The translations under genes were made by a program, and so were the position numbers. Of a stretch of 64,000 nt of DNA, positions 1,904-61,790 are shown one piece after another. The stretch is from Candidatus Bipolaricaulota bacterium (lineage in GTDB: Bacteria > Patescibacteriota > Patescibacteriia > UBA11705 > DATKZF01): NCBI GenBank assembly GCA_035528115.1, contig DATKZF010000003.1, forward strand, positions 423,089-487,088, in the 5' to 3' direction. Position 1 is the stretch's first letter; every line of letters starts with the position of its first letter. The notes under the pieces are model-generated. The model saw only the letters and a list, made by a program, of their open reading frames with translations, had not been told where the DNA came from and made no database searches.

Positions 1904-2026
1904 AGAGATTAGAAACTAGAAACTTGAAATTGGGGAATGGAAATTTGAAACCGGAAATTATCCGCCCGAGGCGGATCCGCCTTTGGCGGAGAAATTGGGG
2001 ATGGAGAAATCTATTCGGAAGAATTA

Positions 2027-2170
2027 GGAAAAGATCTCTCCGCTTCGGTCGAGATGACAACGATGGTTAATTAGGAAAAGATCTCTCCGCTTCGGTCGAG
2101 ATGACAACGATGGTTAATTAGGAAAAAATCTCTCCGCTTCGGCCTGCCCCGAGCAAGGTCGAGGGGTCGA
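2027..2170. repeat. Tandem direct repeat, 3 copies of a 42-bp unit (third copy carries a ~24-bp internal insertion)
   Basis: ttaggaaaagatctctccgcttcggtcgagatgacaacgatggttaa x2, then a variant with cctgccccgagcaaggtcgagggg inserted; each unit contains an atctc...gagat hairpin. The long variant is near-identical in reverse orientation at 51094-51155. Confidence 0.8.
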
Positions 2171-2279
2171 GATGACAACAGCGTCGGCCTTGTTTCTCTG
2201 TTTTCTGTCTCATGTTCTTTTGTTGCGTGTTTCATGATACATGCTTCATGAACATTATAACAAAAGCGGCTCAAGAGAG

Positions 2280-2420
2280 CCACTTTTCTGTGAGAGCGAA
2301 GCGGGCGAGGAAGAGTCCCGACGAATCGGGATGACGACGAGCCCAAGCCGCGCGCAGCCGCACCACCTGCCCCCCGCCCCGAGGGAGGGGGGACAAGGGG
2401 GGAGGGGAGATGAGCTTATT
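2280..2420. other. GC-rich structured island in tig-nfo intergenic region (C/G homopolymer tracts, UUCG-looped hairpin)
   Basis: Local GC far above surroundings; ccccgccccgagggaggggggacaaggggggagggg tracts; cccgaTTCGtcggg hairpin on minus strand. ORFs 2071..2346(-) and 2241..2423(+) are probably artefacts of stop-codon-poor GC-rich DNA. Confidence 0.35.
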
Positions 2421-2423
2421 TGA

Positions 2424-3731
2424 TTAAGAAACAGTAATATTATCTTTTAAAAATTGGATTACTTTTCTATTGGCGATCAAATTGCCGAAATATCTTTTGG
2501 CGTTTTCCGATTTGACGCTTTTTTCCAATTGCGCGAGCTGTCCTTGATATTCGGGTCGCAATTTATATGAAGCCAAAGTTTTGTCTTGCTCGTCTTCAAT
2601 TTCTTGGTCCGTCGCTTCGATTTTTTCTTTACGGGATATTTCCCTGATGGCCAGGGCCGTTTTCACTCTTTTTAGAGCGTCAGCGGTGAAATCGAGCATC
2701 AGATCGCCTTCGGTTTTATTAAGATGCTTCAAATAATCCTCAAAATTCAAACCTTGCCGCCCGATATTATCCTCGAGTTCATGAACCATTTTATGAGTTT
2801 CATCATTGACCAGCGCGTCCGGTATTTCTTCGAACGTTGATTTTTCGATTAATTGCTCGATGATCTCAAGTTCTTGCTTTTGTACGTTTTTTTGCTTTTG
2901 TTCCTCGGTTAAATTGATCCGTATTTGATTTTTCAAGCCTTCAACGTCTTTTAACCCCAGCGCTTTCGAGAAATCATCATTTAATTCGGGCAGATCTATT
3001 TGATACACGGCGAGTACTTTCACTTTGAACTTCGCTTTTTTGCCCGCGATTGATTTTTGATGATAATCTTTGGGAAATGAAAGTTCGAATTCCTTGGTGT
3101 CATCTTTTTTCAGACCGACCACTTGCTCTTCAAAGCCCGGAATCATTTTGTTGTCGCCGATAACTATTGGATATTTTTTCGCTTGTCCGCCGTCGATCGG
3201 CACTTTGTCGACAAAAGTGTCGAAATTTATTTCGACCCTGTCCTTTTGTTGAGCGGCTCGGTCAACCAACATTTCCTTGGCTCGCATTTTTCGCAAATCA
3301 TTGATGACCTGTTCTATTTTAGCGTCTTCGATTGTAATTTCAGGAAGTTTTTTTACCTTGATTTTGATGTACTCGCAAATTTCAATTTTGGGCAATAAAG
3401 ACGCGGTCGCTTTGTAAATAAAAGAATTTCCCGGAGCCATTTTTACAATGTCCAATTTCGGTTGATCGATCGTCTCCAGTTTTTCTTTTTCCAATGTTTG
3501 ATAATAAGTGTCGGAAATCATGTCGGTCGAAGCGTTTTGCAAAAGCGCCATTTCGCCGAATTGGCGAACGCAAGTTTCAAACGGAGCTTTGCCCGGCCGA
3601 AAGCCTTTGATCGGTTTTTCCGCTGACAGCCGTTCGGCCGCTTTTTCCAAGTACGGCTTTATTTCTTCAACGGACAATTCAATGGTTAATTCAATGACTT
3701 TTTTCGGTAGTTCTTTTTTTGTGATATTCAT
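2424..3731 (-). CDS. tig: Trigger factor (ribosome-associated chaperone)
   Basis: Full-length similarity pattern to trigger factor: N-terminal ribosome-binding region GFRPGKAP, FKBP-type PPIase region (GDNKMIPGFEEQVVGLKKDD), C-terminal arm. Start chosen at MNITKK (ATG 3729-3731); the track start 3758 is 9 codons upstream. Confidence 0.85.
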   Translation of the reverse strand: MNITKKELPKKVIELTIELSVEEIKPYLEKAAERLSAEKPIKGFRPGKAPFETCVRQFGEMALLQNASTDMISDTYYQTLEKEKLETIDQPKLDIVKMAPGNSFIYKATASLLPKIEICEYIKIKVKKLPEITIEDAKIEQVINDLRKMRAKEMLVDRAAQQKDRVEINFDTFVDKVPIDGGQAKKYPIVIGDNKMIPGFEEQVVGLKKDDTKEFELSFPKDYHQKSIAGKKAKFKVKVLAVYQIDLPELNDDFSKALGLKDVEGLKNQIRINLTEEQKQKNVQKQELEIIEQLIEKSTFEEIPDALVNDETHKMVHELEDNIGRQGLNFEDYLKHLNKTEGDLMLDFTADALKRVKTALAIREISRKEKIEATDQEIEDEQDKTLASYKLRPEYQGQLAQLEKSVKSENAKRYFGNLIANRKVIQFLKDNITVS

Positions 3732-3835
3732 AGGGTTACAAATTATGAATAAATACAAATATTACAAATGGTTGCAAATTATTACAAATATCAAAATATC
3801 TTTTATTCGTAACTTATTTGTAGCATTCCTGCCTG

Positions 3836-3950
3836 CTCCTCGAGTCTGCCTTCGACGGCCCTGAGGGGCCGCTCAGGCCCTCGAAGGGAGCGACCTCGCC
3901 ACTCGGCCGTGAGCTCGTGGCCGAACGGGAGTCGAAGACCGGCAGGCAGG
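3836..3950. repeat. GC-rich palindromic insert bracketed by CCTGCCTGC...GCAGGCAGG (expanded member of the CCTGCCTGCCGGCAGGCAGG element family)
   Basis: cctgcctgctcctcgag...ccggcaggcagg with internal imperfect palindrome cttcgacggccctgagg/ggccgctcaggccctcgaag; sits between tig start and the antiporter gene stop. Confidence 0.55.
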
Positions 3951-5265: not shown

Positions 5266-6060
5266 ATGCTAAAAGTGATTTTTATCGGAGATATCGTGGG
5301 GAAAATCGGCCGGCAAGCGGCCTTGAAAGCCATTGCCAAATGGAAAAAACAATATAAGCCCGACTTGATCGTGGCCAATGCCGAGAATTTGGCTCATGGC
5401 AAAGGCGTTACGGTTTCTATTTTGAATGAAATGCAACGAGGAGGCATTGATTTTTTCACCTCAGGCAACCATGTCTGGGATAAAAAAGAAGTCTATGATA
5501 TTTTCGCGGACCCGGCCGCGCCGATTATCCGGCCGGCCAATTATCCGGACATGGTGCCCGGCGATGGCTATCGCGTTTTGACGATCGGCAAGAAAAAAAT
5601 TATGATCGTCAATATTATCGGCCAAGTTTTTTTTAAGGAATATTTTGATTCGCCGTTTTTGACTTTCGATGAAATTTTGAAAGAAAAGCCGGCTGATGTT
5701 AAGATTATAATTGTCGATTTCCATGTAGAGGCCACAGCGGAAATCAAATGCATGGGCCATTATTTGGACGGGCAGGTAAGCGCGCTGCTCGGCACGCATA
5801 CCCATGTCGGGACTTGTGATTATCAGCTTTCGGACAAGGGCATGGCTTATGTCACTCAAGTCGGCATGGTCGGAGCCAAGGATTCGAGCTTGGGTTTGAA
5901 ATTCGAACCGCTTATAAAGAAGATGATCACACAATTACCCGCAGCTCACGAATTGCCGGAAAAAGGCATTGTCGAGGTTAACGCGATTTATCTGGAAATA
6001 AAAGAGGATGGCGTTGCCAGGAAAATTAAAAAATTATACGAAGAAATTGAAATTAAATGA
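5266..6060 (+). CDS. YmdB-like metallophosphoesterase (2',3'-cyclic-nucleotide phosphodiesterase family, TIGR00282-like)
   Basis: MLKVIFIGDIVGK...VANAENLAHGKG...FTSGNHVWDKKE...IIIVDFHVEATAEIKCMGHY...GTHTHV motifs of the YmdB family. Confidence 0.75.
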   Translation: MLKVIFIGDIVGKIGRQAALKAIAKWKKQYKPDLIVANAENLAHGKGVTVSILNEMQRGGIDFFTSGNHVWDKKEVYDIFADPAAPIIRPANYPDMVPGDGYRVLTIGKKKIMIVNIIGQVFFKEYFDSPFLTFDEILKEKPADVKIIIVDFHVEATAEIKCMGHYLDGQVSALLGTHTHVGTCDYQLSDKGMAYVTQVGMVGAKDSSLGLKFEPLIKKMITQLPAAHELPEKGIVEVNAIYLEIKEDGVARKIKKLYEEIEIK

Positions 6061-6062
6061 AT

Positions 6063-6150
6063 ATACAAGATTACAGATTTGTGTACAGATTATACGAGAT
6101 AATTTCCAATCTGTATGATCTTGTATGTAAATCTCGTAATCTTGTAACTT
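6063..6150. promoter_or_regulatory. TACRAGAT word array (4 forward then 4 reverse-complement copies) immediately upstream of hup
   Basis: tacaagat, tacagat, gtacagat, tacgagat followed by atctgta, atcttgta, atctcgta, atcttgta; ends 9 nt before the hup ATG. Confidence 0.45.
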
Positions 6151-9175: not shown

Positions 9176-9186
9176 TATATTTAAAA

Positions 9187-9297
9187 CGTCCTCAAACGGA
9201 CAGACAAGAAATTTTTATCCTGGTCGAATCTAGCCGAAGCCTGATTTGACCATAAATAAAAACCCCATGCTTGTCGTGTCTGTCCGTTTGAGGACGC
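9187..9297. repeat. Long inverted repeat (about 22-bp arms, about 60-nt loop) in the convergent vanW-clpP gap
   Basis: cgtcctcaaacggacagacaag ... cttgtcgtgtctgtccgtttgaggacg. Confidence 0.5.
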
Positions 9298-9346
9298 TTT
9301 TGGGCCGACATAATAGTATAGCCTATTTGAAAAGGATTGTCAATGG

Positions 9347-9919: not shown

Positions 9920-10311
9920 AAATTACAAATAGTTAATTCTATTTAGGACAAGCTAGGTTTAGGTTTAACTGTTTTGTTACAAATCGTTGCTTCTAATTAA
10001 CTTGCCTTTGCCTAGAAATTGCGAATAATTAATTCTATTAGGACAGGCTTGGTTTAGGTCTAATTGTTGCTACAGATTGCCGGCGCCCGATAGCTTTGCT
10101 GGGCGATGAAAATTGCGGATAAATATTCAATAGCGTTTTCAACTTGTGATTATTACATTTTAAAAAATTATTGTCAATCAGTCAAAGTTCTGGTTGTGTG
10201 GAAGTGTCTTATTTTAGCACAAATTATCCACAATTTACTAACAATCGCTAATATTTGGCTGAAATGCTGTTGAATATGGGACAGATCGGTAAAGACGGTT
10301 TCTGGGCTCCG

Positions 10312-10340
10312 TTGACAGGTTGTGATATATATGCTATGAT
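10312..10340 (+). promoter_or_regulatory. Consensus sigma70-type promoter (TTGACA-17 bp-TATGAT)
   Basis: TTGACA at 10312-10317, 17-nt spacer, TATGAT at 10335-10340; a second TATAAT follows at 10342-10347. Confidence 0.5.
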
Positions 10341-10347
10341 ATATAAT

Positions 10348-10594
10348 CAATATCATTTCGCGTGGTTAATAAAAAGATATAGGGGAGAGAGTGGAGGGCA
10401 GAATTTATCAATATTGGCCTTGGACCACAATTACCTCTATATCTTTTTGTTAACCAAGAGCCCGCCTTTAGTCGGTAATACATGGAAAAGGCGTTATTCT
10501 TTCAAAAACTTTCAAGTGAGTAGATAGGTATCAATTTCTCTCTCCTCATATCTTTTAGGAGGTCCAGCTTATCTACTCGCTTGAAGGTTTTTTT
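10348..10594 (+). ncRNA. Candidate structured small RNA or long leader (about 245 nt) with promoter and terminator, upstream of ftsK
   Basis: No ORF with a start downstream of the promoter except a 13-codon MEKALFFQKLSSE. The 5' segment ggttaataaaaagatataggggagagag can pair with either cctctatatctttttgttaacc (10432-10453) or ctctctcctcatatctttt (10545-10563). The unit ends in a hairpin caagtgagtagataggt...agcttatctactcgcttg followed by ggttttttt. Confidence 0.35.
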
Positions 10595-14794: not shown

Positions 14795-15240
14795 TCGACA
14801 TAACGTCGTCAGTCAAAAGGAGGAAAGCCATGCGCGGAAAAAAAGGAAAAGGCGGGGGTGTGCCTCCGCAGCTTCGAGTCGTCTCCGGCACTGGGAAGTC
14901 GAACCAGAAGGGAGACGAGCCGCCGACCATGCAACAGGCCGGCCAGATGCAGTTGCACGAGCACACCATGCGTTTCGATACGCAAACCACGGTGTGGCTC
15001 TTGTGGCTGACACAGGAGCTCCCGTTCCCGAACAGGGCGACAGCGATGTCGGCCTTGATCAAGGAAAAAATCGAGGAAATTAAAATGTCGAAGCAGGGCT
15101 GGCAGCCCTGCTATCGCCGGGGCAATGAGGTAGTCCCGGCCGCGCGCAAGCTGCCTCCGAAGGAGTAGTATCATTCGCCAAGGCCGACTCCGGCTCTGGC
15201 GTCAAGATCCGAGGGACCTTTCTCTCGGATTTTATTTTTG
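14795..15240 (+). ncRNA. rnpB: GC-rich structured RNA candidate, most consistent with RNase P RNA
   Basis: About 440-nt GC-rich island in an AT-rich genome, open in at least five frames on both strands. It is bounded by a consensus promoter and by a hairpin-plus-T-tract terminator (ccgagggacctttctctcgg-attttattttt, 15200-15237). It contains aaaGGAGGAAAGCCATGCgcgg, resembling the P4 5' strand of Bacillus-type RNase P RNA (GAGGAAAGUCCAUGC). Downstream, tggctgacacaggag resembles the P4 3' strand/CR-IV region (UGGCUUACAGAA). Confidence 0.45.
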
Positions 15241-15284
15241 TGATTTACTTTTGGCTTGGATTATGCGAAAATAATTAATAAGTG

Positions 15285-15372
15285 AGATTACAAGATTACG
15301 AGATTTGCATACGAGATTATACAGATTAACCCGATCTCGTACAATCTGTACACCAATCTGTAATCTCGTAAA
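15285..15372. promoter_or_regulatory. TACRAGAT word array (4 forward then 4 reverse copies) upstream of tsaD
   Basis: tacaagat, tacgagat, tacgagat, tacagat then atctcgta, atctgta, atctgta, atctcgta; ends 9 nt before the tsaD ATG. Confidence 0.45.
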
Positions 15373-15380
15373 TCCAATTT

Positions 15381-16397
15381 ATGAAGATATTAGCCATTGA
15401 AACCTCCTGCGATGAGACCGCGGCTTCAGTCGTTGAAATAAAAAACGGCAAATTCGCGGCTTTGTCCAATACGGTTTCATCTCAAATAAAAACTCACGCC
15501 AAATACGGCGGCGTTATTCCGGAAGTCGCCGGTCGTCTTCATATTGGAAAAATAATTCCGGTGATCGATGAAGCGTTGAGTTCCTCAAAAACGAAAATTG
15601 CCGAATTGAAAGCTTTGGCCGTGGTGTCGGGACCGGGCTTGGCGCCGTCTCTTCGAGTGGGCGTGGAAACGGCCAAAGCTTTGGCTTATGTCTGGCAAAA
15701 GCCGCTGATATCGGTCAATCATTTGGAAGGCCATATCGCGGCCGGTCTTTTTGAAAATAAAAAAGTTGCCATGCCCGCGGTTTGCTTGATCGCGTCCGGC
15801 GGCCATACTTCTTTGATTTATATAAAAAGCTGGGGCGGGTACGAAACAATCGGCCAAACCAGAGACGACGCGGCCGGAGAAGCCTTTGATAAGGTCGCGA
15901 AAATCATGGGACTTGGTTATCCGGGAGGCCCGCTGATTTCCAAATTGGCGGAAAATGGAAAAACCGGCCGATTCAAACTGCCTAGGCCGATGATTGATTC
16001 CGGCGATTTTGACTTTAGCTTTTCCGGTTTGAAAACAGCGGCTCTTTATTTGTATAAATCCAGAAAAACTTGGACTAAAAAAGACAAGGCTGACTTGGCC
16101 GCGGAATTTCAAGACGCGGTGATTGAAGTTTTGGTGGAAAAATCAATGAGCGCCGCGGAAAAATTAAAAGCCAAAAGTTTTATTTTGGGCGGTGGCGTTT
16201 CCGCCAACAAAAAATTGAGAGCAACGCTCAAGCGAGCCGGCCAAGACATCAAGGGCTTGAGCGTTTTTATTCCGCCTTTTGAATTCACCACTGACAACGC
16301 GGCCATGATCGGCGCGGCCGCGTATTTTCATTATAAAAATAAAAATTTTGTTGATCCGTTTGATTTGGTTGCGGAGCCACGATGGAGATTGATTTAA
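15381..16397 (+). CDS. tsaD: tRNA N6-adenosine threonylcarbamoyltransferase TsaD (Kae1/Gcp)
   Basis: 338 aa; MKILAIETSCDETAASV N-terminus, HLEGH metal-binding motif, GGGVSANKKL. Confidence 0.9.
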   Translation: MKILAIETSCDETAASVVEIKNGKFAALSNTVSSQIKTHAKYGGVIPEVAGRLHIGKIIPVIDEALSSSKTKIAELKALAVVSGPGLAPSLRVGVETAKALAYVWQKPLISVNHLEGHIAAGLFENKKVAMPAVCLIASGGHTSLIYIKSWGGYETIGQTRDDAAGEAFDKVAKIMGLGYPGGPLISKLAENGKTGRFKLPRPMIDSGDFDFSFSGLKTAALYLYKSRKTWTKKDKADLAAEFQDAVIEVLVEKSMSAAEKLKAKSFILGGGVSANKKLRATLKRAGQDIKGLSVFIPPFEFTTDNAAMIGAAAYFHYKNKNFVDPFDLVAEPRWRLI

Positions 16398-17548: not shown

Positions 17549-17809
17549 TTAGAGTTTTTTTCGCAGTTCTTCGAAGCAAAGTTCCCTTACCAATGCGCTG
17601 AACGCGGACAACTCGCAAGGAAATTTTTGTCGCTTGCACGCGGCCAGCAATGCTTCAAGTCGCTCTTCGTAGATTTTTTGGGCGTTCTCGTTGGGTTTGC
17701 CGAGCAGGCTGTTTTTTCGGGTGGTCAGAAATGCCGTGAATACCTTGATGAGAGGCAGTCGCATTTCTTCTGTCAACAAGAAGTCTCGAAGCGACTGATT
17801 GGGTTGCAT
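17549..17809 (-). CDS. Small hypothetical protein (86 aa)
   Basis: Stand-alone ORF between two hairpin terminators (17528-17565 region and 17872-17895); no recognisable family. Confidence 0.3.
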   Translation of the reverse strand: MQPNQSLRDFLLTEEMRLPLIKVFTAFLTTRKNSLLGKPNENAQKIYEERLEALLAACKRQKFPCELSAFSALVRELCFEELRKKL

Positions 17810-21770: not shown

Positions 21771-21862
21771 TTACGAATAATCGCATCACAGCGGCCAAGC
21801 TTGGTTTTAGTTTAAATGTTTTTATTACGAATAGTTACAAATGAGCTTGGAATAATACGCTA

Positions 21863-25985: not shown

Positions 25986-27644
<1,659 letters not shown>

Positions 27645-27697
27645 TTATGATTAAATTTAGTTACCAATGGTTACGAATTTACAAATTGGACAAATAC

Positions 27698-27982: not shown

Positions 27983-27991
27983 ATTTTGAAG

Positions 27992-28066
27992 CTACAAGAT
28001 GTACAAGATTTATATACAAGATATTACGAGATTACAAGATTTAGTATTTTGTACTATCTCGTACGC
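27992..28066. promoter_or_regulatory. TACRAGAT word array upstream of groES; no CIRCE element detected
   Basis: tacaagat x3, tacgagat, tacaagat then atctcgta. The HrcA operator consensus TTAGCACTC-N9-GAGTGCTAA is absent from 27983-28195. Confidence 0.4.
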
Positions 28067-28195
28067 GGATCCGGCACATCTAGGAGCAGTTAAAAAAGAT
28101 TATTTAATCTTATAACTTTATCAGCACCAATGTCAATAGCTTGAAATATCGCGGAAAATAAAAAAAGTCTTTATTTTAAAGCTTTTTGAGTTAAA

Positions 28196-33280: not shown

Positions 33281-33370
33281 AATAATGCGATGCGAATGAC
33301 GCGAATTACATGCGAATTATGCTAATTAAGCAAATATTCGCATCATTCGCATTATTCGTATATTAGCATC
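33281..33370. promoter_or_regulatory. GCGAATGA / TCATTCGC word array ending in ATTAGCATCGA, immediately upstream of ssb
   Basis: gcgaatgacgcgaattacatgcgaattatgctaattaagcaaatattcgcatcattcgcattattcgtatattagcatcgataat-ATG; paralogous array upstream of efp (34235-34320) ends in the same ttagcatcgaatt-ATG. Confidence 0.45.
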
Positions 33371-33376
33371 GATAAT

Positions 33377-33829: not shown

Positions 33830-34001
33830 TCGTTACAAATTTACGAATTTCGTACACCTGCCTGCCGGCAGGCAGGAATATTACAAATGGTTACGAATTA
33901 TTTTCAGCACGGATTTGTTATGAACGTTTTCTAATTTGTACCATTATTATGATATTGTACTATCCTGTATGCGAATCTCGTACATCTCGTAACCAATAAT
34001 T

Positions 34002-34229
34002 ATGATCAGAAAAAATACCGTTAAAAAAGACAAGGCTTGCTATTTTTGCGTGAATACCATGCAAGAGGTCGACTATAAGGAAGGCCAAATGCTGCAAAAA
34101 TTCATTTCTTCTTATGGCAAGATCGCGCCGCAAAGGCGCAGCGGACTTTGCGCCAAACATCAACGCAAAGTGGCGCAGGCGGTCAAGCGAGCCAGAATCA
34201 TGGCCTTGCTGCCGTTTGTGGTTAAATAA
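34002..34229 (+). CDS. rpsR: 30S ribosomal protein S18
   Basis: 75 aa; CYFC motif and ...[32 protein letters not shown]. Confidence 0.9.
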
Positions 34230-34323
34230 GCGACGCGAATATAGCAACGAACATGAGAATGACGCGAAGGAAAGCGCCAGTGTTCGCATCATTCGTGTTG
34301 TTTCGCGTCATTAGCATCGAATT

Positions 34324-34890: not shown

Positions 34891-34976
34891 GTCATGGAGC
34901 ATGAAACATGAATCATGGATCAAATGAAATAGCCGTGTCAGGCAGGCCAAACAATATCTAAATTAATTTTTTTAAG

Positions 34977-35065
34977 TAAATAAAAAATCGCCACTGCTTT
35001 TATGAGATCCCTGCCTGCCTGCCGGCAGGCAGGCTTCCGCGAGGATGACAATGAGGTGGTGATTT
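34977..35065. repeat. Composite palindromic terminator element (A-tract / stem / CCTGCCTGCCGGCAGGCAGG / GATGACA box / stem / T-tract) between convergent efp and SH3b gene
   Basis: aaaaaatcgccac...ccctgcctgcctgccggcaggcagg...gaggatgacaatgag gtggtgattttttg. Confidence 0.6.
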
Positions 35066-36833: not shown

Positions 36834-37065
36834 GTGTATGATAAATTTTCAGTGTTCGGTTCAAAAATCACAAAATGACGTTGTTATTATAGCAATATCA
36901 AAACATCTAGTCAATATGCCCAAAGTCGGCAAATTACTTGAAAAATTTCAATAAATCAGTTAGAATGAGTAAGAACTAATTATCATGAAACATGAATCAT
37001 GGATCATGAATCATTGATCAAGGCGAATTGATACATGATATGTGATACATGACACGTGAAAAAAT

Positions 37066-39398: not shown

Positions 39399-39511
39399 GG
39401 GTTACGAATTACGAATTTTGTACGAATGTTACAAATGGTTACTAATAAGGTAGATATGAAAAAAGCGTTCCGAAAGGGGCGCTTTTTGAGTTGTGATTTA
39501 TCGCCAAGCGG

Positions 39512-42470: not shown

Positions 42471-42520
42471 GAAGCTAATTGTTTCATGATCCATGATTCA
42501 TGTTCCATGCTCCATGACGT

Positions 42521-44370: not shown

Positions 44371-45516
44371 CTATTCTTTTTTATCTTCTTCTTCCGGCTT
44401 TTTTTCTTCAGGCTCCTTTTTTTCAGGCCTGTCGTTTCTCAAGCTCAATCCCAGTCGATGATCTTTGGGTTCGAGCGAGATTATTTTGAATTTCAGCTTG
44501 TCGCCCGGTTTGGCGATTTCGGAAGGATCGGAAATTTGCTTGTCAGTCAATTCGGAAATGTGCGCCAAGCCGTGAATGTCTTCGGCGAGTTCCACGAAAA
44601 GTCCGAAAGGATTGGTCTTTAAGACCGTGCCTTCCACGACATCGCCGACTTTGAATTTGTCTTCGATACCGTCCCAAGGATCTTCTTGCAATTTCTTTAT
44701 GGACAAGAAGATTTTCGAGCGGTCGATATTGATGATTTCGGCTTTGATCGGTTGACCCACCTTAAACAATTCCTTGGGATCATCGATTCTCTGCCAAGCT
44801 AATTCGGAAATATGCACCAAACCCTCGAGGTTTTCGCCGAATTCCACAAAGGCTCCGAAATCGGTGACCGCCGTGATTTTTCCTTCCACCACGTCGCCGA
44901 CTTTGTATTTGGCCAAAGTGTCTTTTTGGGTTTCTTCCCAAGCCGCTTTTTCCGAAACGATCAGTTTCTCTTGCTTCTCGTCAACGGTTAAAACTTTAAC
45001 TTCGAATTTTGAACCCACGTAAGTTTTCAGTTTTTCCAGAATTTTCGTTTTATCTCCGCCTTGAATTCTCGGATAATGTTCCGGCGCCAATTGCGAAACG
45101 GGCAAAAACCCGGAAACGTGATTCAATGTGGCGAGCAAACCGCCTTTATTGGCGTCCGTGATTTTCACGGGCACTATCTTGCCTTCGCGCATGAATTCTT
45201 TCAATGTTTCCCAAGCTTTTTGAAAACCGGCATGGCGCAGTGAAAGCTCCATCTGGCCATGTTCGTTTTCGAGTTCCATGACCGTGGCCTCGATCTCAGT
45301 GCCCGGCTGAAGCTCGCTTAAGGTTTCGAATCCGCCGTATAATTCTCGGCCTCGAATAACGCCCGTGGTCAGGCCGGCTACGTCCACCAGGACTTCCTTG
45401 TGAGACGAATTTATAACCACTCCTTTAATCAAATCCCCGACGCTGGGAATCTGGGTGAACGCTTTGTTGTCTTGCAGCAAATTGTCGAATTCGCTGGCTT
45501 CTGTTGCGATAGACAT
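44371..45516 (-). CDS. rpsA: 30S ribosomal protein S1 (four S1 domains, KE-rich C-terminus)
   Basis: Repeated S1-domain signatures (G..V.G.V......GAFV/LFVEL); start at MSIATEAS preceded by AAAGGAGA SD. Confidence 0.85.
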   Translation of the reverse strand: MSIATEASEFDNLLQDNKAFTQIPSVGDLIKGVVINSSHKEVLVDVAGLTTGVIRGRELYGGFETLSELQPGTEIEATVMELENEHGQMELSLRHAGFQKAWETLKEFMREGKIVPVKITDANKGGLLATLNHVSGFLPVSQLAPEHYPRIQGGDKTKILEKLKTYVGSKFEVKVLTVDEKQEKLIVSEKAAWEETQKDTLAKYKVGDVVEGKITAVTDFGAFVEFGENLEGLVHISELAWQRIDDPKELFKVGQPIKAEIINIDRSKIFLSIKKLQEDPWDGIEDKFKVGDVVEGTVLKTNPFGLFVELAEDIHGLAHISELTDKQISDPSEIAKPGDKLKFKIISLEPKDHRLGLSLRNDRPEKKEPEEKKPEEEDKKE

Positions 45517-51055: not shown

Positions 51056-51340
51056 AAAAACCTACAAGCTACCACCGCCTATTGCCTCTCCGGCCACCCA
51101 TCGTTGTCATCTCGACCCCTCGACTTCGCTCGGGGCATGCCGTAGTGGAGAGATCCCTTTTTGTAATCAATGAGGGATTTCTCCATTCCGCCCTTCGGGG
51201 CTCCCTGCCTACCCTGCCTGCCGGCAGGCAGGCGGCAGGCAGGCGGGAATCCACAAAGCAGCGGTAGAATCATAAGCGGCGGCTTAAATCCACCTAATAA
51301 GCTAATAAGCTACAAGCTACTACGCCTATTGCCTCTCCTC
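51056..51340. mobile_element. MITE-like non-coding insert (about 215 bp) flanked by about 30-bp direct repeats
   Basis: Direct repeats ctacaagctaccaccgcctattgcctctcc (51060-51090) and ctacaagctactacgcctattgcctctcc (51310-51340). The intervening sequence contains the reverse copy of the 2111-2170 unit (ccatcgttgtcatctcgacccctcgacttcgctcggggcatgccgtagtggagagatc) and ccctgcctgccggcaggcaggcggcaggcagg. Confidence 0.5.
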
Positions 51341-54885: not shown

Positions 54886-54962
54886 TACGCAAAGAAGAAC
54901 AATAAAAAGATGCCGTGGGATGAGAGGGAGGTGGCGAGGGAGTGTTTGAGGAGGCGGGGGAA
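54886..54962 (+). repeat. Degenerate copy 2 of the Mur-ligase 3' terminus (att-like remnant)
   Basis: aagaacaataaaaagatgccgtgggatgagagggaggtggcgagggagtgtttgaggaggcggggg versus native 52600-52665. Confidence 0.7.
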
Positions 54963-55615: not shown

Positions 55616-55715
55616 ATGGAAGGCGCGGAGCAGGCGATTGTGGTTAAGAATAATAAAAAGATGCCGTGGGATGAGAGGGAGGCGGCGAGGGAGGTTTTGA
55701 GGAAAATCAACAAAT
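55616..55715 (+). repeat. Degenerate copy 3 of the Mur-ligase 3' terminus (about 85 bp, att-like remnant)
   Basis: ggagcaggcgattgtggttaagaataataaaaagatgccgtgggatgagagggaggcggcgagggaggttttgagg versus native 52572-52660. Confidence 0.7.
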
Positions 55716-60343: not shown

Positions 60344-60375
60344 ATCATTCAAGGAGATGCACAATATTTTTGTTA

Positions 60376-60462
60376 TTTATCGCCTAAAATGGTCGGTTTG
60401 AATCCTATGTATTAGTTTGCACTAGCTAAAAAACCTCAATGTTTGCCGCCAAAAACATCCAC
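60376..60462 (+). repeat. 87-bp direct repeat, copy A (upstream of rhuM-fic)
   Basis: ttatttatcgcctaaaatggtcggtttgaatcctatgtattagtttgcactagctaaaaaacctcaatgtttgccgccaaaaacat, followed by terminator-like ccccgccccgcgcgggagattttttt (60463-60487). Confidence 0.7.
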
Positions 60463-60567
60463 CCCGCCCCGCGCGGGAGATTTTTTTAAAATGCCGGCCG
60501 CGATTATTTATTTGACACATTCCCCAAAATCACGAAAAATGGAAGTATTGGCCGGTTAAAATTATTT

Positions 60568-61557: not shown

Positions 61558-61579
61558 TTATATATAATATGCCTCTTTT

Positions 61580-61607
61580 CTCCCGCCTCCGCGCGGGAGT
61601 TTTTTTT
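61580..61607 (+). terminator. Rho-independent terminator after rhuM-fic
   Basis: ctcccgcctccgcgcgggagtttttttt. Confidence 0.6.
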
Positions 61608-61681
61608 GTTATTTACCGCCTAAAATGCTCGATTTGAATCCAAAGTATTAGTTTGCATTAGCTAAAAAACCTCAATACCTC
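61595..61681 (+). repeat. 87-bp direct repeat, copy B (downstream of rhuM-fic, upstream of rpoB promoter)
   Basis: ttatttaccgcctaaaatgctcgatttgaatccaaagtattagtttgcattagctaaaaaacctcaatacctcccgccaaaaacat; about 85% identical to copy A. Confidence 0.7.
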
Positions 61682-61790
61682 CCGCCAAAAACATTTGTCA
61701 AATTTTTTGTGGATAAGGTGGGAGTTGGCGATCGGAGGAGGGCGGAAATTAGTCTAAATTTAGCTAAATGCAGTGGCCTGCGCCTTGCCC

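What the first reader, a model, noticed from the sequence alone, without database searches (positions are those of the whole stretch)
6063..6150. TACRAGAT word arrays (forward block then reverse-complement block) immediately upstream of hup, tsaD, groES and rpsR
At 6063-6150, 15285-15372, 27992-28066 and 33968-33990 the same 8-mer family (tacaagat, tacgagat, tacagat) is repeated 3-5 times in forward orientation and then 1-4 times as its reverse complement (atctcgta, atcttgta, atctgta). Each array ends within about 10-15 nt of a start codon of a highly expressed gene. This forward-then-reverse architecture can be read either as a long imperfect cruciform/hairpin or as clustered binding sites for a dimeric factor. 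It takes the place usually occupied by a recognisable promoter (and, for groES, by CIRCE).
Basis: seen in the sequence. Interest (0 to 1): 0.7.

Follow-up and report, generated by a model that had tools for sequence, protein, structure and literature searches.

The report
Palindromic octamer-word repeat in mRNA leaders
The TACRAGAT word clusters are copies of one roughly 90-base palindromic repeat element that sits in the transcribed leader between an ordinary promoter and the start codon of four housekeeping genes in an uncultured Patescibacterium, so they are not promoters; what they do is still unproven.

Summary
TACRAGAT occurs 20 times against 2.5 expected, and 18 hits fall in four leaders (hup, tsaD, groES, rpsR). 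The last word ends 10-12 nt before the ATG.

The clusters are not loose word arrays. Each arm is a homologous ~38-nt unit of four words with fixed 8/13/9 spacing. The hup and tsaD copies are the same ~90-bp palindromic element in opposite orientations. The groES copy is truncated, and rpsR keeps one arm.

Recognisable sigma-70 promoters lie upstream of the arrays. The groES promoter is TTGACA-18-TAAGAT. The tsaD promoter is TTTACT-17-GAAAAT with a TG extension, and the same promoter layout is present in the seven orthologues that reach that far upstream. The element is therefore a leader insert, not a promoter substitute.

Relatives with saturated synonymous sites carry the same family at orthologous hup, tsaD and rpsR leaders. 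Others have no array, one arm, a nested array or a different word family at the same site. The genome almost lacks Shine-Dalgarno sites and holds several other word-palindrome families.

My best reading is a MITE/REP-like dispersed palindrome that is co-transcribed as a long leader stem-loop. A word-specific binding factor is not excluded. Function is unproven. It is a new variant of a known kind, of moderate interest.

The parts
6055..6150 (+). Complete TACRAGAT palindromic element in the hup leader. It lies between the ymdB stop codon (6058-6060) and the hup ATG (6159). The 5' arm is 6064-6100 with word lengths 8-7-7-8, the loop is 6101-6108, and the 3' arm is 6109-6146, which reads 8-8-8-7 as its reverse complement.
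   Evidence: The RNA fold is -36.5 kcal/mol with z = -8.1.
15244..15272 (+). Predicted tsaD promoter: -35 TTTACT at 15244-15249, a 17-nt spacer, TG at 15264-15265, and -10 GAAAAT at 15267-15272. It follows the terminator-like hairpin at 15204-15233.
   Evidence: The same promoter layout (TTTACW-N14-TGn-GARAAT, small base differences) is present in the seven orthologous tsaD upstream regions that reach that far, whether or not they carry an array; the eighth contig shows only the -10 element. This is an inference from conservation, because no transcription start was mapped.
15283..15376 (+). Complete TACRAGAT element in the tsaD leader, inverted relative to the hup copy. The 5' arm is 15289-15326 with word lengths 8-8-8-7. 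The 3' arm is 15334-15370, which reads 8-7-7-8 as its reverse complement. It ends 10 nt before the ATG at 15381.
   Evidence: Alignment with the hup copy is better in opposite orientation (83/103, score 140) than in the same orientation (score 107). The RNA fold has z = -5.1.
28107..28136 (-). groES promoter TTGACA-18-TAAGAT, about 40 nt upstream of the array.
   Evidence: The same TTGACA-17-TATAAGAT promoter is present in L213, L214 and L215.
27987..28071 (-). Truncated TACRAGAT element in the groES leader. The start-proximal arm is complete and carries five words (27993-28040). Only the inner half of the distal arm remains (28045-28071). The element ends 10 nt before the groES ATG (27982-27980).
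   Evidence: It is a weak hairpin, z = -1.6.
33955..33995 (+). Solo start-proximal arm of the TACRAGAT element (ATCCTGTA-tgcga-ATCTCGTA-c-ATCTCGTA). It ends 10 nt before the rpsR ATG at 34002.
   Evidence: nhmmer E = 1e-10. The orthologous rpsR leaders in L214 and L215 carry two-armed TACRGAT palindromes.
33830..33960 (+). TTACRAAT word palindrome in the ssb-rpsR spacer. It encloses the GC palindrome CCTGCCTGCCGGCAGGCAGG (33857-33876). This sister word family has the same layout as the TACRAGAT element.
33285..33372 (+). GCGAAT/ATTCGC word palindrome in the rpsF-ssb spacer. A related copy lies before efp at 34253-34317. It shows that the architecture is general in this genome.
   Evidence: (z = -5.2). 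An orthologous copy is present in L214.
3735..3830 (-). TTACAAAT/ATTTGTAA word palindrome immediately upstream of the trigger-factor gene (2424-3731, minus strand).
27630..27697 (-). groES-groEL intercistronic spacer made of ATTYGTAA words. The words are in reverse orientation only and end 6 nt before the groEL ATG.

Best explanation
The four clusters are copies of one dispersed, non-coding palindromic repeat element of about 90 bp. It resembles a MITE or REP element. Two copies are complete, one is truncated and one is a single arm.

Each arm is a homologous ~38-nt unit: TACRAGAT-(n)-TACRAGAT-ttgca-TACRAGAT-(nn)-TACRAGAT. The element occurs in either orientation, and always in the short leader between an ordinary sigma-70-type promoter and the start codon.

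The host is an uncultured Patescibacterium (closest GroEL match: Cand. Falkowbacteria) that makes almost no use of Shine-Dalgarno sites. The element is one of several word-palindrome families that fill leaders, intercistronic spacers and 3' UTRs in this clade.

Proposed mechanism:
- The element is co-transcribed with the gene.
- Two-armed copies fold into a stem-loop of about 35 bp that begins near the 5' end of the mRNA and stops about 10 nt before the AUG. This leaves just enough unstructured, A/U-rich RNA for SD-independent ribosome loading.
- The most likely effect is post-transcriptional: a 5' or intercistronic stem-loop that alters mRNA decay or processing. It could act as a barrier to RNase Y or RNase J, or as a substrate for a double-strand-specific RNase.

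Shown: the family relationship, the arm architecture, both orientations, the upstream promoter motifs, presence/absence among orthologues, and the lack of SD sites.

Inferred: transcription through the element, folding in vivo, any effect on mRNA, and how the element spreads.
For: - **Enrichment.** The words are enriched and almost exclusively intergenic.
- **Arm architecture.** Spacing is 8-10/13/9-10 in nearly every arm of four loci and five genomes. Thirteen arms align to one consensus. An arm HMM retrieves only these sites plus untrained arms in L205 and L214.
- **Orientation.** The hup and tsaD copies are inverted relative to each other. Word lengths read 8-7-7-8 / 8-8-8-7 in one and the swapped pattern in the other. 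They are 81% identical in opposite orientation. This also explains why the sense strand folds better at hup and the antisense strand folds better at tsaD.
- **Promoters.** Promoters lie upstream of the arrays and are conserved regardless of array state.
- **Turnover at orthologous sites**:
  - tsaD: full element (window, L204, L210), one arm (L205), decayed (L207), nested around a GAAAWT palindrome (L212), absent (L209, L211).
  - groES: TACRAGAT (window), none (L214), nested and duplicated (L213), CAATGAA family (L215).
- **Transcribed position in other lineages.** In other Patescibacteria, analogous palindromes lie between CIRCE and the ATG, which is a transcribed position.
- **SD sites.** Only 2 of about 60 genes have an SD-like motif.
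- **Relevant proteins.** RNase Y and ribosomal protein S1 are encoded in the window.
- **Hairpins.** z-scores are -8.1, -5.1 and -5.2.
- **Experimental precedent.** In Haemophilus influenzae, a transcribed short-repeat array forms a 5'-UTR hairpin that RNase III processes, changing expression (PMC12721329).
Against: - There is no strand bias towards G.U pairs on the sense strand. Six arrays fold better as sense and six as antisense. RNA-level selection on pairing is therefore not demonstrated.
- The groES and rpsR copies, and tsaD in L205, lack a partner arm yet keep intact words. A hairpin cannot be the whole story.
- The same word family persists at orthologous leaders although fourfold synonymous sites of tsaD are at or near saturation (identity 0.22-0.46, random 0.25). 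That points to sequence-specific constraint or concerted evolution, which a structure-only model does not predict.
- No target-site duplication could be shown, and no cognate transposase was seen in the window (about 30 of the roughly 60 predicted window proteins were scanned).
- No transcription start site or expression data are available.
Confidence: 0.5

Rival explanations
1. Operator arrays. The octamer words are binding sites on DNA for a sequence-specific, oligomerising regulator. It would sit just downstream of the promoter and co-regulate hup-hsp20, groESL, tsaD and rpsR. This resembles MetJ on tandem 8-bp met boxes or Fur on hexamer arrays (comparison from my own knowledge).
For: - The word sequence is conserved far beyond neutral expectation at orthologous leaders.
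- Solo arms keep their words without a pairing partner.
- Words 1 and 3, and words 2 and 4, are 21-22 bp apart, which is two helical turns.
- Orientation independence fits a DNA site.
- The arrays begin within about 5-45 nt of the -10 element.
- The same gene set carries the family in several genomes.
Against: - At the same orthologous site, relatives have no array or an unrelated word family. Examples are the groES leader in L214 and L215, and tsaD in L209 and L211.
- At least five other word families share the architecture in a genome of well under 1 Mb (source contig 604 kb), which would require many regulators.
- Sister-family words also occur in 3' UTRs before terminators, at 39399 and 21771.
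- No candidate regulator was identified.
Confidence: 0.15
2. Translation-initiation element. The start-proximal AUCUYGUA words would be single-stranded RNA binding sites that recruit the ribosome in a genome without Shine-Dalgarno sites, via S1 or another RNA-binding protein. The complementary arm would act as a built-in anti-enhancer. This parallels what was proposed for TAACTGA heptamer repeats in Beggiatoaceae.
For: - The genome lacks SD sites and encodes S1.
- The last word ends 10-12 nt before the AUG at all four loci.
- In solo arrays in leaders the reverse-type words predominate, at groES, rpsR, groEL and clpP.
- The published analogue has the same position and the same lack of SD sites (PMC4679880).
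Against: - The 10-nt spacer appears to be part of the element terminus rather than an independently selected distance.
- In L205 the forward-type arm abuts the tsaD ATG.
- In complete copies the words are locked in a stem of -25 to -36 kcal/mol.
- Distances in relatives range from 8 to 21 nt.
- Many highly expressed genes in the window have no such words.
Confidence: 0.12
3. Selfish or neutral repeat with no host function. The palindromes would arise by slippage and templated copying, or by transposition. They would survive only where a streamlined genome tolerates insertions: between the transcription start and the ribosome-loading zone, between cistrons and in 3' UTRs.
For: - Orthologous sites show presence/absence, nesting, truncation, tandem duplication and family replacement.
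- Perfect tandem (TACAAGAT)n arrays in other metagenome contigs show that the words expand by slippage (L124, L125).
- Period 7-9 arrays are pervasive in intergenic DNA.
- The element inserts in both orientations.
- There is no RNA strand bias.
Against: - The word family is retained at orthologous leaders across lineages whose synonymous sites are saturated.
- About 89% of the window is coding, so 90-nt inserts should be costly.
- The arm architecture is maintained, including in solo arms.
Confidence: 0.2
4. The arrays are the promoters themselves, or a non-canonical promoter type.
For: - The word TACAAGAT differs by one base from the groES -10 region TATAAGAT.
- No convincing promoter was found upstream of the window's hup array.
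Against: - Canonical promoters lie upstream of the groES and tsaD arrays and are conserved in orthologues that lack the array.
- L205 has TTTACG-17-TAAAAT just upstream of its hup element.
- The genome uses ordinary TTGACA-17-TAnAAT promoters elsewhere.
- Arrays also lie between cistrons of the rpsF-ssb-rpsR-efp cluster.
Confidence: 0.03

Closest known systems
Bacterial MITE-type palindromic repeats that are co-transcribed with neighbouring genes: Correia/NEMIS elements of Neisseria and ERIC/IRU elements of enterobacteria (from my own knowledge, not checked in the paper library)
   Same: They are short (about 100-150 bp), non-coding and dispersed, and they have long inverted arms. They insert next to genes in either orientation and are transcribed into mRNA, where they fold into long hairpins. 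For Correia elements RNase III cuts these hairpins and changes mRNA stability. They also show presence/absence between related genomes.
   Different: Here each arm is built from four 7/8-nt words in a fixed spacing rather than being a unique terminal inverted repeat. No target-site duplication or cognate insertion sequence was shown. The copies sit specifically between promoter and start codon in an SD-less Patescibacterium. Several unrelated word families share the same design.
TAACTGA heptamer direct repeats upstream of start codons in Beggiatoaceae, cyanobacteria and some Bacteroidetes (MacGregor 2015, PMC4679880)
   Same: These are 7-8-nt words repeated 2-6 times within a few nucleotides of start codons. 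The leaders lack Shine-Dalgarno sites, and ribosomal-protein operons are among the sites. Function is unproven, with a proposed post-transcriptional or translational role.
   Different: The TAACTGA sets are almost all direct repeats in one orientation (169 direct, 1 indirect). Here the words form two inverted arms with a higher-order spacing and behave as a discrete element inserted in both orientations.
Haemophilus influenzae hmw1A 5'-UTR (ATCTTTC)n repeat hairpin processed by RNase III (Rapun-Araiz et al. 2025, PMC12721329)
   Same: A heptamer repeat array is transcribed as part of the 5' UTR and forms one arm of a long hairpin. Processing of that hairpin changes expression. This is experimental precedent for the mechanism proposed here.
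   Different: It is a single locus with phase-variable repeat number, and its other arm is a G-rich non-repeat sequence. Here both arms are word arrays, the copies are dispersed, and no length variation was seen between two assemblies of the same strain.
REP/BIME extragenic palindromes of enterobacteria and their RAYT transposases (from my own knowledge)
   Same: They are dispersed extragenic palindromes inside transcription units. They act as mRNA stabilisers and protein-binding sites, and they are often paired in inverse orientation.
   Different: REPs are 20-40 nt, GC-rich, mostly located 3' of genes, and carry a conserved GTAG-type head recognised by a RAYT transposase. The elements here are AT-rich, about 90 nt, word-built and mostly 5' of genes. 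No RAYT was seen.
CIRCE/HrcA operator of groESL
   Same: It occupies the same position, between the groES promoter and the start codon, and is an inverted repeat.
   Different: No CIRCE consensus occurs in the window. In other Patescibacteria CIRCE and a word palindrome coexist in the same leader. The element here is not specific to heat-shock genes.

Membership tests
MITE-like dispersed palindromic repeat | Short non-coding element with terminal inverted repeats | tested here: met
   The element is about 90 bp with two ~38-nt arms and contains no ORF. The hairpin z-scores are -8.1 and -5.1.
MITE-like dispersed palindromic repeat | Multiple homologous copies at unrelated loci, in either orientation | tested here: met
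   There are four loci in 64 kb. The hup and tsaD copies are 81% identical in opposite orientation. An extra solo arm lies at L214 13097-13135.
MITE-like dispersed palindromic repeat | Presence/absence polymorphism at orthologous sites | tested here: met
   tsaD lacks the element in L209 and L211. groES lacks it in L214. rpsR lacks it in L213.
MITE-like dispersed palindromic repeat | Target-site duplication flanking the element | tested here: inconclusive
   The filled sites can be read as TA...TA, and the empty L211 site has a TA. However, TA is also part of every word, so no independent duplication can be shown.
MITE-like dispersed palindromic repeat | Cognate autonomous element or transposase with the same ends | not tested
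   Only the window and about 20-kb neighbourhoods of relatives were available. About 30 of the roughly 60 predicted window proteins were scanned, and none of those is a transposase.
REP/BIME | 20-40-nt GC-rich imperfect palindrome with a conserved tetranucleotide head, mobilised by a RAYT transposase | tested here: not met
   The element is AT-rich, about 90 nt and word-built. No RAYT was seen in the window.
CIRCE/HrcA operator | TTAGCACTC-N9-GAGTGCTAA inverted repeat | tested here: not met
   There are 0 matches with up to 3 mismatches in the window.
Sigma-70 promoter | -35 and -10 hexamers at 16-18-nt spacing that direct initiation for the downstream gene | tested here: not met
   Promoter-like sites lie upstream of the arrays for groES and tsaD and are conserved without the array. 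The only in-array match, at 15318-15345, is at chance level.
RNA thermometer (ROSE / FourU type) | The hairpin sequesters the SD site and/or the start codon and melts at heat-shock temperature | tested here: not met
   The stems end 10-12 nt upstream of the AUG and do not include it. Stabilities of -25 to -36 kcal/mol are far above those of thermometers. The comparison with thermometer stability comes from my own knowledge.
Any Rfam family | Match to a curated covariance model at the gathering score | tested here: not met
   The only hit in the window is tRNA-Glu.
TAACTGA-type start-codon-proximal heptamer repeats | Tandem direct repeats of one 7-mer, in forward orientation, within a few nucleotides of the start codon in SD-less leaders | tested here: inconclusive
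   The position and the lack of SD sites match. The word, the inverted two-arm layout and the orientation independence differ. That family has no agreed defining mechanism.

The most novel reading that the evidence does not exclude
Patescibacteria that have given up Shine-Dalgarno sites may use arrays of 7-8-nt words in mRNA leaders as a cis-regulatory code. A dedicated sequence-specific RNA- or DNA-binding factor would read this code. The TACRAGAT family would define a conserved regulon of core genes (hup-hsp20, groESL, tsaD, rpsR), and the complementary arm would serve as a built-in switch. The persistence of the same word at orthologous leaders across lineages with saturated synonymous sites, and intact words in solo arms, are the observations this reading would explain.
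Probability: 0.15. Interest if true: 0.8.

Novelty: new variant of a known kind. Interest (0 to 1): 0.5.

Why it matters
Almost nothing is known about how the Candidate Phyla Radiation (Patescibacteria) controls gene expression. These organisms are uncultured, have few regulators, and in this lineage lack Shine-Dalgarno sites.

A repeat class that occupies the leaders of the most heavily used genes (HU, chaperonins, trigger factor, ribosomal proteins, SSB, EF-P) is a concrete handle on post-transcriptional control in these organisms. It turns over between relatives yet keeps its word sequence. It can be tested with existing metatranscriptomes.

There are also practical consequences. These palindromes can mislead promoter and RBS prediction, gene-start calling and assembly in CPR genomes. 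If the elements turn out to be merely selfish, they still show where a streamlined genome tolerates insertions.

Tried and rejected
1. **Metagenome-wide pattern scan.** The scan for ATCTYGTA-N0-5-ATCTYGTA was too permissive. Only L089, L124, L125 and L193 showed real arrays.
2. **GroEL-based locus search in genomes.** This search returned mostly Firmicutes because GroEL is too conserved. Only about 15 Patescibacteria loci were useful.
3. **Strand test for RNA-level selection.** I compared sense and antisense folding energy and G.U content. The result was 6 against 6, so it does not support RNA-specific pairing. The mutually inverted element copies later explained this outcome.
4. **Close-strain comparison.** Two assemblies with identical TsaD (L001, L002) have identical arrays, so there was no microvariation to analyse.
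5. **Gapless inverted-repeat finder.** It missed most arrays because the arms differ by indels.
6. **CIRCE, Rfam and promoter scans.** Nothing was found inside the arrays.
7. **Target-site duplication.** It is not resolvable because TA is part of the word.
8. **Literature searches.** I found no description of this repeat class in CPR.
9. **Pairing of the words with the 16S rRNA 3' region.** I considered this but did not test it, because no 16S gene is available in the window or the loci.

Full report
**Observation**

The four clusters exist where stated. TACRAGAT occurs 20 times in the 64-kb window against 2.5 expected, and 0 of 100 shuffles reached that number. Eighteen of the 20 hits fall in four intergenic clusters. 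Counting the 7-mer TACAGAT as well, 25 of 27 words lie in the 11% of the window that is non-coding.

Pfam confirms the downstream genes as HU, TsaD, GroES and S18. In gene orientation each cluster ends with ATCTYGTA words 10, 10, 10 and 12 nt before the ATG.

**Source organism**

The window comes from a 604-kb contig of JGI metagenome 3300031565. It belongs to an uncultured Patescibacterium. Its closest GroEL match is Candidatus Falkowbacteria at 73% identity.

**The clusters are copies of one element**

Word spacing within nearly every arm follows the same pattern, 8-10 / 13 / 9-10 nt. This holds for four loci in the window and for relatives. Thirteen arms align to one consensus: tgaRnt-TACRAGAT-(n)-TACRAGAT-ttgca-TACRAGAT-(nn)-TACRAGAT.

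An HMM built from the arms finds only these sites in the window and in 1.47 Mb of fetched loci. It also finds arms that were not used for training (L205 tsaD; L214 13097-13135).

The hup copy has word lengths 8-7-7-8 in its 5' arm and 8-8-8-7 in the reverse complement of its 3' arm. The tsaD copy has the two patterns swapped. The two copies align better in opposite orientation (83/103, score 140) than in the same orientation (score 107). The same ~90-bp palindromic element is therefore inserted in both orientations relative to the gene.

- The groES copy is truncated. It has a full start-proximal arm but only half of the distal arm.
- rpsR retains a solo arm.

**Position relative to transcription signals**

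groES has TTGACA-18-TAAGAT at 28136->28107(-), upstream of its array. The same promoter is conserved in three related genomes.

tsaD has TTTACT-N14-TGc-GAAAAT at 15244-15272, after a terminator-like hairpin. The same promoter layout, with small base differences, is present in the seven orthologous upstream regions that reach that far. It is followed by one of the following:

| State at tsaD | Loci |
|---|---|
| Full element | window, L204, L210 |
| One arm only | L205 |
| Decayed remnant | L207 |
| Outer word pair enclosing a different (GAAAWT) palindrome | L212 |
| No element | L211 |

L209 also has no element. Its contig begins 32 nt upstream of the gene, so only the -10 element is visible there. 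That -10 lies 7 nt from the ATG, which is the spacing of a leaderless mRNA.

The genome uses ordinary sigma-70 promoters elsewhere. The element is therefore an optional insert in the transcribed leader. It is neither a promoter nor a promoter substitute.

CIRCE is absent from the window. In other Patescibacteria, however, a CIRCE and an analogous word palindrome coexist in the groES leader, with the palindrome between CIRCE and the ATG (L008, L051).

**Generality**

The window holds other families with the same design:

- **TTACRAAT:** before tig, clpP and groEL, in the ssb-rpsR spacer, and in two 3' UTRs.
- **GCGAAT:** before ssb and efp.
- **Others:** CATGAA, GTAGCT/TAGGT and GAAAYT.

Different Patescibacteria use different words at equivalent positions.

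Among four genomes at 72-80% protein identity, the groES leader carries TACRAGAT, no array, a nested and tandemly duplicated version, or a CAATGAA palindrome. The rpsR leader carries the TACRGAT family in three of the four. The ssb leader carries an orthologous GCGAAT/ACGAAT palindrome in two.

Perfect tandem (TACAAGAT)n runs in other metagenome contigs show that the words can expand by slippage.

**Translation context**

Only 2 of about 60 genes have an SD-like motif at the usual distance. Ribosomal protein S1 and RNase Y are encoded in the window.

**Structure**

As RNA, the hup array folds at -36.5 kcal/mol (z = -8.1) and the tsaD array at -29.6 kcal/mol (z = -5.1). The groES (z = -1.6) and rpsR (z = -0.7) arrays do not fold convincingly.

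Across 12 arrays the sense strand folds better in six and the antisense strand in six. There is therefore no positive evidence that pairing is selected specifically in the mRNA. For hup and tsaD this result follows from the two copies being mutually inverted.

**Conservation**

Fourfold-degenerate sites of tsaD are 22-46% identical between the window and its relatives, against a random expectation of 25%. Neutral DNA is therefore at or near saturation.

Even so, the same word family and arm layout persist at the orthologous hup, tsaD and rpsR leaders, and solo arms keep intact words. This indicates sequence-specific constraint or concerted evolution among copies. A pure stem-loop model does not predict it, so a word-reading factor remains a live alternative.

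**Interpretation**

With high confidence, this is a dispersed palindromic repeat element of the MITE/REP kind. It is built from octamer words and resides in transcribed leaders.

With moderate confidence, two-armed copies act as long 5'-UTR or intercistronic stem-loops that stop just short of the ribosome-loading zone and influence mRNA decay or processing. The Haemophilus hmw 5'-UTR repeat hairpin cut by RNase III is experimental precedent (PMC12721329). From my own knowledge, Correia and ERIC elements behave similarly.

Rivals:

- operator arrays for a DNA-binding regulator;
- RNA sites that recruit ribosomes in an SD-less genome, as proposed for TAACTGA heptamer repeats (PMC4679880);
- a functionless selfish repeat tolerated only in leaders;
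- a promoter, which the evidence rejects.

I found no description of this repeat class in CPR in the searchable literature. I rate it a new variant of a known kind, of moderate interest.

Noticed in passing
window, all gene starts (for example 17549-17809(-) and 44371-45516(-) are the exceptions): The genome almost lacks Shine-Dalgarno sites. Only 2 of about 60 genes have a GGAG-like motif at -8 to -14. The sequence upstream of start codons is A/T-rich.
   Followed up: partly
window 33857-33876, 35010-35033, 51213-51232; split copy at about 3829 and 3940: The GC-rich perfect palindrome CCTGCCTGCCGGCAGGCAGG recurs four times against 0 expected. It is embedded inside the AT-rich word palindromes. 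At 3829-3945 it is itself split by a further GC-rich palindromic insert of about 100 nt, so palindromes are nested within palindromes. The copy at 51213 lies inside the predicted 5' end of the Mur-ligase ORF, so that gene start may be miscalled.
   Followed up: partly
window 2022-2142: A 47-nt unit is repeated 2.6 times at 98% identity (AATTAGGAAAAGATCTCTCCGCTTCGGTCGAGATGACAACGATGGTT). It overlaps the small ORF 2071-2346(-).
   Followed up: no
window 9946-9964, 10041-10059, 21793-21811: Another dispersed motif, GGACARGCTWGGTTTAGGT, has 3 copies against 0.05 expected. It sits next to TTACRAAT words in the clpP upstream region and in a convergent-gene spacer.
   Followed up: no
window 9183-9300 and 10363-10592: Long inverted repeats unrelated to the word families. 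One has 27-nt arms at 93% complementarity with 64 nt between them. Others have 32-nt and 23-nt arms around the small ORFs at 10106-10527.
   Followed up: no
window 54905-54960 versus 55640-55710; 60344-60470 versus 61575-61700: Two pairs of duplicated intergenic segments of about 60-120 nt lie upstream of consecutive genes. One pair begins aataaaaagatgccgtgggatgagagggagg. The other begins ttatttatcgcctaaaatggtcggtttgaatcc.
   Followed up: no
L204 11245-11508, L209 1124-1555, L210 4001-4393, L212 2380-2898: A small PD-(D/E)XK nuclease gene (PF13366) is inserted between tsaD and tsaE in some relatives. It is absent from the window, L205, L207 and L211, so it looks like a mobile gene. L214 also carries a GIY-YIG gene in a variable region.
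   Followed up: no
L209 1-35: In this relative the tsaD -10 element (GAAAAT) lies 7 nt from the ATG. This is the spacing expected for a leaderless mRNA.
   Followed up: partly
L213 2798-3203 (groES leader of GCA_049319825.1): About 190 nt of the groES leader is duplicated in tandem. The duplicated segment includes the end of the -10 region and a nested TACGAGAT/ACGAAT palindrome.
   Followed up: no
window 42485-42517 and 34892-34922, 36982-37059: CATGATC and ATCATGA heptamer arrays occur downstream of the radical-SAM gene / RNase Y gene pair, after efp, and before rpmF. They form another word family with forward and reverse blocks.
   Followed up: no
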